From Verrucomicrobiota bacterium (GTDB lineage Bacteria > Verrucomicrobiota > Verrucomicrobiia > Limisphaerales > CANJSG01): DNA of 19,375 nt. Shown here in pieces: positions 12,001 through 19,375 of the stretch; within the stretch, counting starts at the first letter, position 1; each line of letters opens with the position of its first letter. The position numbers were made by a program. The stretch lies in contig JBBQXJ010000088.1 in NCBI GenBank assembly GCA_038209745.1, positions 1 through 19,375 on the forward strand, written 5' to 3'.

Positions 12001-15000
12001 TTCTCGGAAGGAACCGCCTATGGAAAGACAGACGAGGAAAGGCGGCGGTTTTCATGGCAGCATTCGGAGCGCCGGCCAGTCCCGGCGGCCTCTCAACCTA
12101 AGAAATAAACGAAGCGGACGTCGATCTTGCGGTGCCTGCCAAATACAAGGCACCTTTCGGTGACCGATGTCAGATCCCGTTGTCCAAGACGCGCCCCACG
12201 CCCTCGACGAGCTTCATGCCAAGCTGAGGCTTATCCGGCGCGAACTCCGCGACGAATACCTCCAACCCCACGCGCATCCGTGGATCATCGGCTTCTCCGG
12301 CGGCAAGGACTCCACCCTCCTCCTCCATTTCGTTCTGGAGGCCATTCGCAGCGTGGCCCCGGACGAGCGGAAGCGCGCCGTCCATGTCGTCAGCAATAAC
12401 ACGCTCGTCGAGTCGCCCATCTTCCAGGACTTCGTGGACCGCTTGCTGGAGCGGCTGGAGGACAGCCTGGAAGGGTTGAACGTCCCTGTAAGCGTCGTCC
12501 GCACCAAACCGCTTCCCGAGGAGAGCTTCTGGGTGAACCTCCTGGGCAAGGGCTATCCCGCCCCCAACCGCACCTTCCGCTGGTGCACCGACCGGATGAA
12601 GATCCGGCCCACCTCCCGCCTTATCCGCAGCCTGGTGGACGCCAATGGCGAGGCCATCCTCCTGCTCGGCGTGCGGCGGGCCGAATCGGCCACCCGGGCC
12701 AACGCCATCTCCCGCCACGAGGACGCCGACAAGGGCCGACTCTCCCCCCACTCCGACCACAAGGGCGTCTCCATCTTCTCCCCTATCAAGGACCTGACCA
12801 ACGAGGACGTCTGGCTCACCCTGCTCAACAGCCGACCGCCGTGGGGCGGCAGCTACCGCGAGCTGGTCACCCTCTACAAGAACGCCGCCGGCGGCGAATG
12901 CCCCTTCGTCATGACCGTGGGCGATGCCCCCTCCTGCGGCTCCTCCTCCGCCCGCTTCGGCTGTTGGACCTGCACCGTCGTCGAGAAGGACAACTCCCTC
13001 GCCGCGCTGATCGAGGCCGGCCACGACCATCTGGAGCCGTTGGCCGACTTCCGCGACCGGCTCAAGCAGGTCAGCCAGTCGCCTCAATACCGCAAGACCA
13101 TCCGCCGCAATGGCCAGCACGGCATGGGGCCGCTCACCCCGGAAGCCCGGCGGATGCTGTTGGACGAGCTGCTCGCCCTGCGGGCGGAAGCCGACTTTCC
13201 GCTCATCTCCGACCATGAAGTCCGGCTTATTCGGGAGCAGTGGGAGAAGGACAAGACACAGGATTTGGTCCGGGCCTTGGCGCTGGAGGAGAATCTGGAA
13301 CCCCGTCTGCTGATTCTCAATGGAGCCGTCTGCTGACAAGTGGTTATCCAAGCTGGGCCGCTTGCGAATCGACCGGAAAGATAACCCAGCTCCGCATAAG
13401 CCGCTCCTTCTCTTGACCGTCATCGAGATGGTCGAAAAGGGCTTCTTGAAAGAACCCGTTCTTCCATTTTCCGGAGAGCTGACTTTTCGCTTTATGACGC
13501 TGTGGCCGGTGGTCGCCGGGCGGCGGAGTCAGAGACCTGAGGTTTGGCTTCCTTTTTATCATCTCCGAACCTCCGGCGTCTGGGTTCCTCTCGACGCGTC
13601 TGGAAGCCCAACGGAAGAGCGCCGCCGAGTCGCTTCGGCGCGAATTGCCCTTGAGTTCTTCGATTGCCTGCTGGAACCCGAGTTCCGGGAAAAGCTTCGG
13701 GTCCTGCTGATAGATCGCTACTTCACCGATTCTGCGGAACGGGCTGCGTTAGCGGAATTCGCCGGTGTTACGCTGGAGCAGTCTAGCGAGCTGAATGATC
13801 GGGTTGATCGATATGAAGTCGCCCTTCGGATTGTCCGTGAGGTTCGCTTCCGGCTCGGGGTGGTTCCTGCCTTCGACTACACCTGCGCGCTCACGGGATA
13901 CCGGCTCGTCACCGCCGCTGCGGGAAGCATCGTTGACGCGGCGCATATCCACCAGTTCGCCGCCAGTCAGAACAACGATCTGCGGAACGGAATCGCGCTG
14001 TCCAAGAATGCCCATTGGACTTTTGACCAAGGTCTCTGGTCTCTGACGGACGACTATCGGGTGATCTTGGCGAAGGATCGTTTCAACGAGTCAGGCCCAC
14101 AGAGCCTTTTGTTATCCAGTTTCGAGGGACGACGCATCCATCTGCCCAAGCGTAAAGACCAATGGCCCGACGTTCGCCACCTTGAGTGGCATCGAAGGAA
14201 TAAGTTTGGGCGAATCTGACCTTCACCCCCGCTCTGGAGAACCATCGGGACGAGAAGAAATTCCGGATCATCCGGCGGTGGTTCTTCACCGGTTCGAATC
14301 AGCCCAAACAGGGCGACGCCTTCGAGGAGCTGGAGGTCCACGTCGGCGACAACATCATCCGCAGCGTCAACCCGCATGAACGGATCGAGCGGGAGCTGTT
14401 CCCGGCCCATGTGGCCCCGGCGTTCTTCTTCGATGGCGAGCAGGCGCAGTCCCTGATCGAGGGTTCCGGCGAGGCCGGCATCCGCAAGGCGTTGGACACG
14501 ATGTTCGGCGCGTCGGTGCTGGAGGAATTGCAGGACACTCTCGGTGGCTATCTGTCTCGCACTCATGCTCTCTTGGGCGGAAAGACGAAAGCCTCGGCAC
14601 GCCAGGAGCAGTTGGACGCCAAGGTGGCAGCCCAAACCGAGTTGAACCGGAAGATTGGCAAAGCCGAGAAACAGTTGGTCGAACTCCACACGGAGAAGGA
14701 GAACACCGACCGGGAACGCAACCAACTGCGCGATGAACTGGCTCGGGCCGGTGGTGTCGGCGGCGACGCCACCCGCATCAAACAGGAGTTCCAGGAAGCC
14801 GAGAGCCGGAAAGAAGCCGCCGAGAAAGCCGTGACTCGCTTGGCGACCGAGATGGGGCTGGTCCTGGCTGTCAGCCGGCTCGATCCGCTGGTTCGCCGCC
14901 AGTTGAACCGGGAACGGTTGCGCGAGGACTACGAGAACCTCCGCCAGGGCACGCTCGACAAGCGGGAACGCGTGCTGATGGAAGCCATGCCCGAGCCGCC

Positions 15001-18000: not shown

Positions 18001-19375
18001 ACGAGCCAGGATCAATCCTTGGAGGAGATGTCGAATGAGCCCGTTTCCATTAAAGCTGCAAGCCGTGAAAGTATCCCAGCCAATGGGCGACTTTTATGCG
18101 GTCGCAATCCCCGCAAAAATCCTACGTCCCATAGTATTTCTTGATCCGACTCGTATTGAGTCCGTTGACCGAAGCTCGTTTCTCTACCGACTGCTTGGGA
18201 ACCAGCGAGACGCTTCCACTTCTCGCGCGCGAGAGATTGCCAAATACATCAACACCGTGGAGTCGGCCTTCCCCAACAGCATTATCCTGGCCGCCAACTA
18301 TGTTGAGTATGGAAGTTTGCAGGAGGACCCTGCTCGTAGGTGGAAGGTAGGAAAGGATTCGAGCGGGCTTTTCCTCACGATTCCAACTGCTGAGCGCATG
18401 GCCAGTGTGGTCGATGGGCAACATCGGCTTCTGGGATTCGACTACTGCAAACCTGAACGAAGGGACATGGAGCTTTTGTGCGCGGTTTACATGGATTTGC
18501 CGCAGGCCTACCAAGCTTACCTTTTTGCGACCATCAACATCAATCAGAGGAAGGTGAACAAGAGCCTCGCCTACGAGCAGTTCGGCTACAATTTGGATGA
18601 CGAAAAGCCAGAGGGTTGGGCACCAGACAAGCTGGCGGTATTCTTCACGAGGAAGCTGAACCTAAATCCAGAGTCACCGTTGCATCAGCATATCAAGATT
18701 GCACCGTTGGAGGCTGACTTGGTCTTTCAGAAATCTTCGGACTCCGACTGGGTTGTTTCTACCGCTTGCATCGTTGAAGGGATTGTTTCGCTGGTTTCAG
18801 CGCGCCCGAAGATTGACCGGGATCTTCTTCATTCCAAGCAGCCGAATGAACGGAACCGAAGCGGGTTGCCTCAAGACGGGGCTCCGTTTCGTGATCTTTT
18901 TCGGCAGTGCCAAGACGAAGTGTTGTGGGGCCAAATTTTGGGATTCTTTTCCGTCGTCAAACAGACATTCTGGGCGAAAGCCTCCGAAAAATCCTTCATC
19001 AAGAAGACGATTGGCGTTCAGGCGTTGTTTGATGTCTTCAGAGTCCTGGGTCTCAGATTCGAACTCGATAAGTTGTCACAGGAGGTCGGTCGTGTTGCTG
19101 GGGTAGCCTCAGCCATTGATTTCGGAGGAGACTTTTTCCAAGCCTCAGGCAAAGGACGAGTCAGGGTCAAAAACGTGATCTTGAGAGCGGCTGGATTGAT
19201 AGGAGATGCCGACCTGCCAGCACCAGACCGTGTGGGGCATCGGCGTCCGAAGGCGGGTGTCATGATGCGGCGTAGAGGGAGGCGAGGCGTGGCACGGCGA
19301 GGGCTTCCGTGAGCCGGTCGCGCAGGGCGTGGCGGAGCCAGCGGAGGAACTTCACGCTGCGCTGGGTGGCCCGCC

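What a model noticed while it worked through the whole genome (the two positions that open the first line are those of the whole stretch)
12167..19312. A phosphorothioate-reading SBD-HNH nuclease gene has replaced the P-loop end of dndD inside a PVC-type dnd operon
C88 carries a PVC-type DNA-phosphorothioation operon (dndC g03429, dndD g03431, dndE::HerA/FtsK-ATPase fusion g03432, small membrane protein g03433, DndB/DGQHR g03434). Between dndC and dndD sits g03430 (13320-14219), an HNH nuclease whose N-terminal 140 residues match the solved sulfur-binding domain that reads PT-DNA, i.e. a PT-dependent type IV restriction enzyme. Its insertion removed the first ~95 codons of dndD, including the Walker A loop: dndD homology resumes in frame directly after the HNH stop codon at residue 96 of intact relatives. 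The operon is thus most likely dead for modification, which resolves the expected self-killing conflict between a PT writer and a PT-dependent nuclea [...]
Evidence so far: PADLOC/Pfam: DndC E 1e-110; g03431 matches DndD/PbeC models only from model position ~150 on; g03432 DndE+DUF87; g03434 DndB/DpdB. g03430 res 11-141 align to PDB 8h0l 'SBDHga1' (E 8.7e-9), HNH_2 at 189-242. tblastn with a full-length DndD (690 aa, locus L052): this genome keeps only res 96-689, starting at C88:14213, inside the last codons of the HNH gene. Relatives (39 loci from find_related_loci, call 86; ORF/phmmer map call 87): 16 loci with dndC-dndD-dndE::HerA contiguous and no insertion all have DndD of 688-757 aa; in all 4 other loci with an SBD-HNH orthologue (38-50% id) right after dndC (L059, L064, L077, L080; Chthoniobacterales) dndD is cut too: res 257-687, 598-687, none, none; i [...]
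(Added by a program. Inside this text positions count along the whole contig: contig position 1 is position 1 of the stretch shown here. "Call 12" and the like, gene names such as g00115 and contig names such as C1 are that model's own, and its searches are not shown. The text may have been shortened before it was handed on; [...] marks where a part breaks off. The agent that wrote the report below was given it as the finding of a first reader that could run no searches.)

Follow-up and report, generated by a model that had tools for sequence, protein, structure and literature searches.

The report
Sulfur-reading nuclease gene inside broken dnd operon
A gene for a nuclease that recognises sulfur-modified (phosphorothioate) DNA sits in the middle of the operon that would write that modification, has removed parts the writer needs, and the same replacement recurs in dozens of other environmental bacteria.

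Summary
Window 12167-19312 reads dndC, SBD-HNH, a dndD that begins at residue 96 of intact relatives (no Walker A), dndE::HerA, a membrane protein and DGQHR/DndB. The HNH protein has the sulfur-binding fold, all five sulfur-cavity residues and an intact HNH motif.

New here:
- The replacement also removed a ~65-aa gene (Pfam Sp-DndD, equivalent to the C-terminal part of classical DndC). It lies between dndC and dndD in all intact relatives.
- An HNH-anchored metagenome scan found a dndC or dndD piece directly upstream in 39 of 55 determinable loci. At least ten left and ten right breakpoints occur. A complete dndD follows the HNH in 0 of 24 loci with 2 kb or more downstream.
- HNH alleles turn over beside conserved dndC, and the trees are incongruent.
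- A ~1% diverged strain shares both junctions and has a frameshifted dndC.

Best reading (0.6): a phosphorothioate-dependent restriction cassette has replaced the core of the writer, which can no longer modify DNA. Reader and writer behave as alternative cassettes at one locus.

Against a simply dead operon: the remaining genes are intact. Recent substitutions are mostly synonymous, yet the window's dndD remnant evolves 3-4 times faster than its relatives. No chemistry was measured.

The parts
12167..13336 (+). dndC (389 aa), core PAPS-reductase-like part only; lacks the C-terminal Sp-DndD-like part
   Evidence: PADLOC DndC E 1.5e-110, model positions 9-376 of 481. TIGR03183 337.5 bits, above the 290.4 cut-off, positions 7-366 of 447. 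Cys245/257/266/269 are present.
12815..12816 (+). site of a +T insertion in a ~1% diverged strain (runs X2 and X3), which shifts the dndC frame at codon 217
   Evidence: table 4: X2 6.4 of 6.4 and X3 5.7 of 5.7 depth. The shift removes the four-cysteine cluster.
13320..13336 (+). left junction: the HNH start codon overlaps the last codons of dndC, in the slot that Sp-DndD occupies in intact operons
13320..14219 (+). SBD-HNH nuclease gene (299 aa)
   Evidence: NF045808 E 1.2e-32, positions 3-283 of 284, 113 bits, below the 180 cut-off. AF2 model pLDDT 89.8. Foldseek hits: VcaM4I, TagI, and the SBDs of Hga, SprMcrA and ScoMcrA. GC 0.60 against 0.647 in the flanks.
13350..13742 (+). sulfur-binding domain (residues 11-141); cavity residues H26, K27, L77, P78, H81
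   Evidence: phmmer to 8h0l, E 8.7e-9. Cavity residues of SBDHga are H25, K26, L75, P76, H79 (PMC10602919, passages read). APHKP and P78 are invariant in 19 of 19 homologues. TM 0.72-0.76 to 8h0l.
13884..14045 (+). HNH_2 catalytic motif (residues 189-242; H209, N223, H232)
   Evidence: Pfam PF13391 E 1e-9. H209, N223, G224 and H232 are invariant in 19 of 19.
14204..14219 (+). right junction: the dndD frame opens 16 nt before the HNH stop, and dndD homology starts at 14213 (residue 96)
   Evidence: The window and L054 share the HNH sequence up to ...GGGCGAA and then diverge.
14204..15994 (+). dndD remnant (596 codons stop to stop; residues 96-689 of intact DndD). No Walker A. Signature motif, Walker B and H-loop are kept.
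   Evidence: Lineage-specific changes: 38 against 9 versus L055, and 78 against 25 versus L072.
14411..14413 (+). first canonical start codon (GTG) in the dndD remnant frame, at codon 70
15991..17559 (+). dndE::HerA/FtsK-type ATPase fusion (522 aa)
   Evidence: Pfam DndE 28.3 bits (cut-off 25) and DUF87. 75% identical to L072 over its full length.
17601..18038 (+). small membrane protein (145 aa)
   Evidence: No family found. Homologues occupy the same place in L155, L156 and L162.
18035..19312 (+). DGQHR / DndB-like protein (425 aa)
   Evidence: TIGR04172 E 3.9e-124, 414.5 bits (cut-off 450). TIGR03187 155 bits (cut-off 58.85). GC falls to 0.52 here.

Best explanation
A phosphorothioate (PT)-reading type IV restriction gene has taken the place of the core of a PT-writing operon.

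The nuclease (inferred from homology): the 299-aa protein binds Rp-phosphorothioate links with its N-terminal sulfur-binding domain. It then cuts nearby DNA with its HNH domain. In this way it would restrict DNA that arrives from dnd-positive neighbours or their phages. It is read from the dnd operon and is translationally coupled to dndC.

The writer (loss of parts shown, loss of function inferred): the cassette replaced the Sp-DndD mini-gene and the first 95 codons of dndD, including Walker A. This operon therefore most likely cannot phosphorothioate the host DNA, and that makes the nuclease safe for its own cell.

The population (inferred from trees): the PT-writer cassette (Sp-DndD/dndD and onward) and PT-reader cassettes (diverse SBD-HNH alleles, sometimes with other defence genes) are alternative fillings of one locus. 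They move by recombination in the conserved flanks, dndC on the left and the dndD remnant or dndA on the right. The leftover dnd genes in the window are recently orphaned and under relaxed constraint, or are kept intact by exchange with writer alleles.
For: The nuclease looks working:
- SBD fold with all 5 cavity residues conserved, and an HNH motif invariant in 19 of 19 homologues.
- dN/dS of HNH is 0.06-0.21 in 5 pairs.

Writer parts are missing:
- DndD starts at residue 96. Walker A (residues 34-43) is invariant in 5 of 5 intact relatives.
- Sp-DndD is present in all intact loci examined and matches PF20306 in 7 of 7. It matches the DndC C-terminal model positions in 4 of 4. tblastn finds it in none of 8 other HNH-bearing loci nor anywhere in the own genome.
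- The own genome has no second DndC, SspD or DndD.

Recurrence:
- 9 loci in genomes.
- 39 of 55 determinable loci in the HNH-anchored metagenome scan have a dnd piece directly upstream.
- Left breakpoints: after a complete dndC (28 loci), inside dndC at codons 30 to 253, or after a dndD stub of 68 codons.
- Right breakpoints: in dndD at 62, 96, 257, 326, 429, 565, 598 or 660, or in dndE.
- A complete dndD follows the HNH in 0 of 24 loci with 2 kb or more downstream.

Decay in relatives:
- L162 has a broken dndC, HNH and dndB.
- dndC is frameshifted or truncated in about 11 of 49 HNH loci, against 0 of 52 loci with a full dndD.
- The sister strain has +T in dndC.

Relaxed constraint in the window: the dndD remnant has 38 lineage-specific changes against 9 in L055 (p<0.001) and 78 against 25 in L072. 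dndC shows 38 against 29, not significant.

Cassette movement:
- The AU test rejects one clade for the 9 genome HNHs (p 7e-70).
- The DndC tree forces 5 changes of state.
- L055 groups with L072 for DndC (99*) but with the window for DndD (98*).
- DndC is 98.7% identical but HNH only 81% in L189/L238, and 91% against 44% in L182/L232.

Literature: SBD nucleases restrict dnd plasmids (PMC6224610, PMC7461809, PMC10602919, passages read). Lutz et al. proposed mutated dnd clusters as one explanation for rare co-occurrence.
Against: - No PT chemistry or nuclease activity was measured.
- The window's dndC, dndD remnant (596 codons), dndE::HerA and DGQHR genes are all open. The remnant keeps its signature, Walker B and H-loop motifs.
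- Against the ~1% diverged strain that shares both junctions, substitutions are mostly synonymous. The dndD remnant has 4 nonsynonymous and 6 synonymous (pN/pS 0.22, p 0.018 against neutrality). dndC has 7 and 12.
- DndC beside HNH has dN/dS 0.07-0.21 even in pairs whose HNH co-diverged, for example L182/L186 at dS about 1.
- 28 of 39 metagenome loci keep a complete dndC flush with the HNH, and 15 keep a cysteine desulfurase nearby.
- A distant SBD-HNH-like clade with APHK, PFW and HNH motifs lies next to intact dnd operons in 4 loci.
- The HNH scores below NCBIfam's cut-off (113 bits against 180).
- Genome-level exclusion could not be shown: 1 genome has both, and 1.2 are expected.
- Frameshifts in MAG or metagenome contigs may be assembly errors.
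Confidence: 0.6

Rival explanations
1. DndC and the SBD-HNH protein are a working pair. In the window they would act together with the headless DndD, DndE::HerA and DGQHR. This would be a rewired system in which the HNH supplies the nick and the SBD supplies PT or sequence recognition. It would either write PT without DndD/DndE or sense PT with leftover Dnd parts.
For: - Adjacency is the majority state in the HNH-anchored sample: 39 of 55 loci. In the window's HNH subclade, 21 of 25 determinable loci have it.
- 28 of 39 junctions are flush with a complete dndC.
- DndC dN/dS is 0.07-0.21 in HNH-bearing pairs.
- A cysteine desulfurase lies downstream in 15 loci.
- The window's remaining ORFs are intact, with pN/pS about 0.2.
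- DndD-like and Sp-DndD-like proteins (PbeC, PbeB) are named as parts of a restriction module in PADLOC.
Against: - dndC is cut to 30-253 codons in 7 loci and frameshifted in 4, yet the HNH is kept.
- The sister strain has a frameshifted dndC and an intact HNH.
- The window's DndC lacks the C-terminal part that type-H DndC carries.
- The convergent desulfurase is also the end of intact type-H operons, so it is an inherited flank.
- 16 of 55 loci, and 11 of the 12 closest homologues in genomes of the phylum, have no dnd gene nearby.
- Characterised SBD nucleases kill PT-writing cells (PMC6224610, PMC7461809).
- The window's dndD remnant is accelerated.
Confidence: 0.2
2. Reader and writer coexist without conflict. 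The truncated DndD still works, for example from GTG 14411 with ATPase activity supplied by the HerA fusion. The SBD would not recognise the sequence context that this operon modifies.
For: - The remnant ORF is intact and keeps its C-terminal ABC motifs.
- An ATPase is fused to DndE.
- SBDs differ in sequence preference (PMC7470945, passages read).
- Another SBD-HNH-like clade lies beside intact operons.
Against: - Walker A is invariant in intact relatives, and the N-terminal half of an ABC/SMC head is missing.
- Sp-DndD is missing as well.
- No locus with this HNH clade keeps a full DndD (0 of 24).
- The remnant evolves 3-4 times faster than its relatives.
- The remnant is cut to 90 or 28 residues, or lost, in relatives that keep the HNH.
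Confidence: 0.07
3. The slot after dndC is simply a hot spot for defence-gene insertion in a decaying island. The HNH is one cargo among many and has no causal link to PT.
For: Other cargo occupies the same slot:
- A Dcm fragment plus Mrr in L058.
- CoiA_N-like genes after the HNH in L057, L154 and L200.
- DUF488, Schlafen/AlbA_2, SIR2 and PHP-SMC genes.
- Eroded operons without any HNH: L161 and L168.
Against: - The cargo nearest to dndC is an SBD-HNH in 48 loci spanning two DndC clades and two HNH groups.
- 71% association in an HNH-anchored sample is far above the under-3.6% reported for other PT-dependent nucleases (PMC7461809).
Confidence: 0.1
4. The junctions are a chimeric assembly of a metagenome-assembled genome.
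For: The contig comes from a 140-contig genome with 2.6% contamination.
Against: - Contigs of runs X1, X2 and X3 bridge both junctions.
- X2 record 9 spans 12000-15215 in one piece with 38 differences.
- The same architecture is present in L055.
Confidence: 0.01

Closest known systems
SBD-HNH phosphorothioate-dependent type IV restriction enzymes (SprMcrA, EcoWI and relatives; ScoMcrA carries an extra SRA domain)
   Same: Two-domain plan with an N-terminal sulfur-binding domain and a C-terminal HNH. The H-K and L-P...H cavity residues are conserved. Foldseek TM to the SprMcrA SBD is 0.63-0.68 and to the ScoMcrA SBD 0.59. NCBIfam PT-DNA_restrict matches over the full length.
   Different: The score is below the family cut-off (113 bits against 180). 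The gene lies inside a dnd operon and is coupled to dndC, whereas under 3.6% of the nucleases studied by Lutz et al. lie near dnd genes (PMC7461809, passages read). Activity was not tested.
Hga (SBD plus PD-(D/E)XK), PDB 8h0l
   Same: It is the best sequence and structure match for the SBD: E 8.7e-9, TM 0.72-0.76, and the same five cavity residues.
   Different: The nuclease domain is HNH, not PD-(D/E)XK.
DndBCDE phosphorothioation operons, in the variant with Sp-DndD and a DndE::HerA fusion (intact in L072, L151, L060, L064, G200)
   Same: Same gene order and 72-77% identical proteins to L072 for DndC, DndD residues 96-689 and DndE::HerA.
   Different: Sp-DndD and DndD residues 1-95 are replaced by the HNH gene.
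DpnI / DpnII complementary cassettes of Streptococcus pneumoniae
   Same: A modification-dependent nuclease and a modifying system serve as alternative fillings of one locus between shared flanks and are exchanged by recombination. The idea is recalled; PMC3812788 was seen only as a search listing and abstract start.
   Different: Here one flank is itself a writer gene (dndC) and the breakpoints vary. Coexistence of both alleles within one species population was not shown.
SspE of the SspABCD-SspE system
   Same: A nuclease that senses PT and is encoded with PT genes (PMC9646914, search listing and abstract start only).
   Different: SspE depends on host PT and coexists with a working writer. 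Here the writer is broken and the domains are SBD-HNH.

Membership tests
SBD-HNH PT-dependent type IV restriction endonuclease | N-terminal sulfur-binding domain fold | tested here: met
   phmmer to 8h0l E 8.7e-9. AF2 pLDDT 89.8. TM 0.72-0.76 to 8h0l, 0.63-0.68 to 7ccd and 0.59 to 5zmo.
SBD-HNH PT-dependent type IV restriction endonuclease | Sulfur-cavity residues (H, K/R, hydrophobic residue, P, H/Y) | tested here: met
   H26, K27, L77, P78 and H81 align with H25, K26, L75, P76 and H79 of SBDHga. APHKP and P78 are invariant in 19 of 19.
SBD-HNH PT-dependent type IV restriction endonuclease | Intact HNH catalytic motif | tested here: met
   PF13391 E 1e-9. H209, N223 and H232 are invariant.
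SBD-HNH PT-dependent type IV restriction endonuclease | Score above NCBIfam NF045808 cut-off | tested here: not met
   113.2 bits against a cut-off of 180, though the alignment covers positions 3-283 of 284.
SBD-HNH PT-dependent type IV restriction endonuclease | Cleaves PT-DNA and spares unmodified DNA | not testable with these tools
   Needs enzyme or transformation assays.
SBD-HNH PT-dependent type IV restriction endonuclease | Host lacks a working PT writer of matching specificity | tested here: inconclusive
   The only DndC and DndD in the 92% complete genome belong to this broken operon, and no SspD was found. PT itself was not measured.
Dnd phosphorothioation (writer) operon | DndC sulfurtransferase core | tested here: met
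   TIGR03183 337.5 bits against 290.4. The cysteine cluster is present.
Dnd phosphorothioation (writer) operon | C-terminal DndC part, or the separate Sp-DndD protein | tested here: not met
   DndC models match only to position 376 of 481. Sp-DndD was not found in the window or the genome by tblastn with 7 queries.
Dnd phosphorothioation (writer) operon | Full-length DndD with Walker A | tested here: not met
   Residues 96-689 only. TIGR03185 158.4 bits against 245.85.
Dnd phosphorothioation (writer) operon | DndE | tested here: met
   PF08870 28.3 bits against 25, fused to a HerA-type ATPase.
Dnd phosphorothioation (writer) operon | Cysteine desulfurase (DndA or IscS) | tested here: inconclusive
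   Four desulfurase genes lie elsewhere in the genome, all below the DndA cut-off. None is in the window.
Complementary writer/reader cassettes (DpnI/DpnII-like) | Alternative cassettes between homologous flanks | tested here: met
   The intact L072, L151, G123 and G337 operons and the HNH loci share dndC on the left and the dndD remnant, dndE or dndA on the right.
Complementary writer/reader cassettes (DpnI/DpnII-like) | Exchange by recombination in the flanks | tested here: inconclusive
   Incongruent DndC and DndD trees for L055. HNH and DndC identities are discordant. No breakpoint was mapped.
Complementary writer/reader cassettes (DpnI/DpnII-like) | Both alleles segregate within one species | not tested

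The most novel reading that the evidence does not exclude
DndC plus SBD-HNH, with a cysteine desulfurase, is a system of its own rather than a wreck. It would be a minimal sulfur-DNA module independent of DndD and DndE. The HNH domain would make the nick and the fast-swapping SBD would set or read the target, so that swapping HNH alleles beside a conserved DndC changes specificity. The window would be a hybrid of this pair with a PVC-type operon whose headless DndD, DndE::HerA and DGQHR are being re-used.
Probability: 0.15. Interest if true: 0.9.

Novelty: new variant of a known kind. Interest (0 to 1): 0.72.

Why it matters
PT-writing dnd systems and PT-dependent nucleases are known as antagonists that rarely share a genome. 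Why they occasionally co-occur was left open, with 'mutated dnd clusters' offered as a guess (PMC7461809).

The same thing has happened many times, with different breakpoints, in two DndC clades. That gives a concrete genetic route by which a lineage flips from 'marks its DNA with sulfur' to 'kills sulfur-marked DNA'. It also suggests that the dnd locus behaves as a two-state cassette site in natural populations.

It offers testable material: natural series of truncated DndD proteins, a DndC without its C-terminal part, and dozens of SBD alleles of probably different specificity.

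Tried and rejected
- Fusion of HNH to the dndD remnant by a -1 frameshift. Rejected: there is no X XXY YYZ heptamer at 14200-14219, and in L055 the dndD frame opens after the HNH stop.
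- Split DndD with the N-terminal piece elsewhere. The own genome gives only generic P-loop matches at E 0.002 or worse.
- The search for related loci with the single DndE::HerA protein found no relative. It was repeated with alignment A1.
- dN/dS between the window and L054, L055 or L072: dS is saturated or distorted by GC3 differences, so the values are not usable for timing.
- Relative-rate tests with the distant outgroups L063 and L060 were inconsistent. They were replaced by the close outgroups L072 and L151.
- Genome-level avoidance of HNH and DndC in 400 genomes of the phylum is underpowered: overlap 1, expected 1.2.
- Promoter scan: 0 sites. No terminator-like site lies between the HNH and dndD.
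- No repeats flank the HNH gene.
- The search of earlier findings for relatives returned nothing.
- No RNA holder was listed among sequencing runs.
- No decayed dndD fragments were found between the HNH and the dndD tail in L154, L059, L057, L162, L054 or L130. The space holds other genes.
- No complex prediction was run, because no binding is claimed.

Full report
**1. What is in the window**

On the + strand the ORFs run as follows:
- dndC, 12167-13336.
- A 299-aa HNH gene, 13320-14219.
- A frame open from 14204 to 15994.
- dndE::HerA, 15991-17559.
- A 145-aa membrane protein, 17601-18038.
- A DGQHR/DndB-like gene, 18035-19312.

- DndC: PADLOC E 1.5e-110; TIGR03183 above its cut-off.
- The 596-codon frame matches DndD/PbeC models only from about model position 90-110 onward.
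- DndE plus DUF87 in the fusion protein.
- DGQHR: TIGR04172 E 3.9e-124.

Upstream of about 11.8 kb lie ordinary Planctomycete/Verrucomicrobial genes. GC falls from 0.65 to 0.52 over the last 2 kb and is 0.60 over the HNH gene.

**2. The nuclease**

- Residues 11-141 align to the solved sulfur-binding domain of Hga (8h0l, E 8.7e-9).
- The paper on that structure names H25, K26, L75, P76 and H79 as the sulfur cavity (PMC10602919, passages read). In the alignment these are H26, K27, L77, P78 and H81 of the window protein.
- In an alignment of 19 homologues, APHKP, P78 and the HNH residues H209, N223 and H232 are invariant.
- An AlphaFold model (pLDDT 89.8) matches modification-dependent HNH enzymes (VcaM4I, TagI). 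It also matches the SBDs of Hga (TM 0.72-0.76), SprMcrA (0.63-0.68) and ScoMcrA (0.59).
- NCBIfam's 'phosphorothioated DNA-binding restriction endonuclease' model aligns end to end, but at 113 bits, below its 180-bit cut-off.

So it works like an SBD-HNH enzyme. Strict membership of that curated family is not met, and activity is untested.

**3. What the writer has lost**

- A 690-aa DndD from the intact relative L072 aligns to the window only from residue 96, starting at 14213, inside the last two codons of the HNH gene.
- Walker A (GAMNGHGKTS, residues 34-43) is invariant in 5 of 5 intact relatives and is gone. The signature, Walker B and H-loop motifs remain.
- The first ATG/GTG/TTG in the remnant frame is GTG 14411, at codon 70.
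- The genome (92% complete) has no other DndD piece, no second DndC and no SspD.

- It matches Pfam Sp-DndD in 7 of 7 cases, 2 of them above the cut-off.
- It matches the C-terminal part of classical DndC models in 4 of 4 cases.
- It is present in all intact loci examined. tblastn finds it in none of 8 other HNH-bearing loci nor in the window's genome.

The HNH start codon sits exactly where that gene would start. Two writer parts are therefore missing.

**4. The junctions are real**

Contigs from three sediment metagenome runs cover both junctions. One 3433-nt contig (run X2) spans 12000-15215 with 38 differences. This ~1.2% diverged strain has the same architecture. In both X2 and X3 it carries an extra T after 12815. 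That shifts dndC at codon 217 and removes its four-cysteine cluster. The depth is low (about 6), so an assembly error is not excluded, but two runs agree.

**5. Relatives in genomes**

I ran a DndC-anchored scan (80 loci) and a DndE::HerA-anchored scan (21 loci). Together with the window they give 9 loci with an SBD-HNH directly after dndC: the window, L054, L055, L057, L059, L061, L130, L154 and L162.

DndD in these begins at residue 96, none, 62, none, 660, 257, none, 598 and none respectively. At least 12 loci without the HNH have Sp-DndD and a full DndD.

L162 is wholly decayed: dndC and dndB each fall into two frames and the HNH has an internal stop.

Other eroded operons carry different cargo, such as a Dcm fragment plus Mrr in L058, or plain deletions, as in L161 and L168.

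The 9 HNH loci are not one lineage:
- The DndC tree needs 5 changes of state, all forced by starred branches.
- The HNHs fall into two separated groups mixed with stand-alone genes.
- An AU test rejects a single clade (p 7e-70). The group was named after a first tree had been seen.
- L059 and L154 are sisters for DndC (100*) but carry HNHs of different groups.

**6. Relatives in metagenomes**

This scan was anchored on the HNH, so it is unbiased with respect to dnd. It returned 80 loci, 79 of them unique. I mapped them with PVC-type dnd queries and with a second type ('type-H'), whose intact operons I found in two genomes. Those read dndC, dndD, an E-like gene, x and dndB, followed by a convergent cysteine desulfurase.

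- 39 loci have a dndC or dndD piece directly upstream on the same strand.
- 16 have 1300 nt or more upstream and none.
- 24 are too short to tell.

Left junctions:
- After a complete dndC in 28 loci.
- Inside dndC at codons 30, 36, 61, 166, 223, 241 and 253. One further locus (L249, at 336) is ambiguous.
- After a 68-codon dndD stub that still holds Walker A, in 3 loci.

Right junctions:
- dndD remnants starting at 326, 429 and 565.
- dndE remnants in 3 loci.
- The desulfurase gene further on in 15 loci.

Of 17 metagenome loci and 7 genome loci with 2 kb or more after the HNH, none has a complete dndD. This 71% association contrasts with the under-3.6% reported for other PT-dependent nucleases (PMC7461809, passages read). 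Three literature searches found no description of an SBD-HNH gene inside a dnd operon.

**7. Cassette behaviour**

Close DndCs carry very different HNHs:
- L189/L238: DndC 98.7% identical (dS 0.056), HNH 81% (dS 1.7).
- L182/L232: 91% against 44%.
- L171/L200: 87% against 49%.
- L205/L222: 88.5% against 42%.

L055 groups with intact L072 for DndC (99*) but with the window for the dndD remnant (98*). The DndE::HerA piece from the same MAG is 85% identical to the window's, against 77% between the window and L072.

This points to recombination near the dndC/HNH boundary that carries the HNH with its right-hand neighbours. The window and L054 share the HNH sequence to the same last nucleotide and then diverge.

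**8. Is the rest of the operon dead?**

Evidence for relaxed constraint:
- With close outgroups, the window's dndD remnant has 38 lineage-specific residues against 9 in L055 (266 columns). It has 78 against 25 in L072 (593 columns).
- dndE::HerA has 63 against 21 in L072, but only 18 against 12 in L156.
- dndC has 38 against 29, not significant. Mosaic ancestry could inflate some of these contrasts.
- Frameshifted or truncated dndC occurs in about 11 of 49 HNH loci and in 0 of 52 loci with a full dndD. Rows showing only '1stop' are HSP overruns seen in both classes and were set aside.

Evidence against:
- All remaining window ORFs are open.
- Against the ~1% diverged strain, the dndD remnant shows 4 nonsynonymous and 6 synonymous changes (pN/pS 0.22; binomial p 0.018 against neutrality). 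dndC shows 7 and 12, and the HNH 2 and 3.
- DndC next to HNH has dN/dS 0.07-0.21, including pairs whose HNH co-diverged.

I read this as recent orphaning with relaxed constraint, or flanks kept good by exchange with writer alleles. A retained or new function is not excluded.

**9. Verdict**

The best explanation (0.6) is a PT-dependent restriction cassette that has replaced Sp-DndD and the P-loop end of dndD. This leaves a writer that cannot write, and it is one instance of a widespread writer-to-reader replacement at dnd loci.

The main rival (0.2) is that DndC and the SBD-HNH protein work together.

Shown:
- The gene content, the junctions and the missing parts.
- The recurrence and the incongruent trees.

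Inferred:
- The nuclease's specificity.
- The loss of PT.
- The safety logic.
- Cassette exchange.

Noticed in passing
L150:7722-7925, L164:7708-7913, L153:1536-1727, L158:7724-7934, L253:8990-9256 (-): PVC-type dnd operons encode DndC in two pieces: a ~370-390-aa core and a ~65-aa Sp-DndD protein (PF20306). The small protein matches the C-terminal part of classical DndC and the small PbeB protein of PADLOC.
   Followed up: yes
L072:18347-19204 (-), L124:17196-18011, L129:8990-9808, L053:1002-1871: A distant SBD-HNH-like clade (100* support, 23-29% identical to the window protein) lies 1-6 kb from dnd operons. The L072 operon is intact. The clade keeps the APHK, PFW and HNH motifs. It might be a PT-sensing partner of working writers.
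   Followed up: partly
L173:7095-7280, L175:4545-4790, L176:1159-1377: A duplicated fragment of the 3' end of the cysteine desulfurase gene (residues about 290-370) lies just after the HNH, ahead of the complete desulfurase gene. It may be a scar of the recombination that brought the cassette.
   Followed up: no
L057:11851-12969, L154:8763-9689, L200:6888-7127: A gene with a CoiA_N-like domain directly follows the HNH in three loci whose HNHs belong to different groups. It may be a second cargo gene of some cassettes.
   Followed up: no
L058:2576-4396: In the sister locus of L061, a Dcm methylase fragment and an Mrr-type (modification-dependent) nuclease lie between dndC and a truncated dndE::HerA. 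A different modification-dependent nuclease occupies the same slot.
   Followed up: partly
L252 (G005:C6) 6102-7400: A type-H dndC stands alone, with neither dndD nor HNH after it, in a 100% complete genome.
   Followed up: no
window 13084-13140: Ten of the 38 differences from the X2/X3 strain cluster within 57 nt of dndC, which suggests a short recombination tract.
   Followed up: no
window 17000-19375: GC content falls from about 0.65 to 0.52 over the membrane-protein and DGQHR genes. Different parts of the island may therefore have different origins. The contig ends at 19375.
   Followed up: no
window 11813-11836: The best terminator-like hairpin of the region (8 pairs, then a T run) lies just upstream of the operon, about 330 nt before dndC. 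No sigma-70-like promoter was predicted anywhere in 11400-19375.
   Followed up: no
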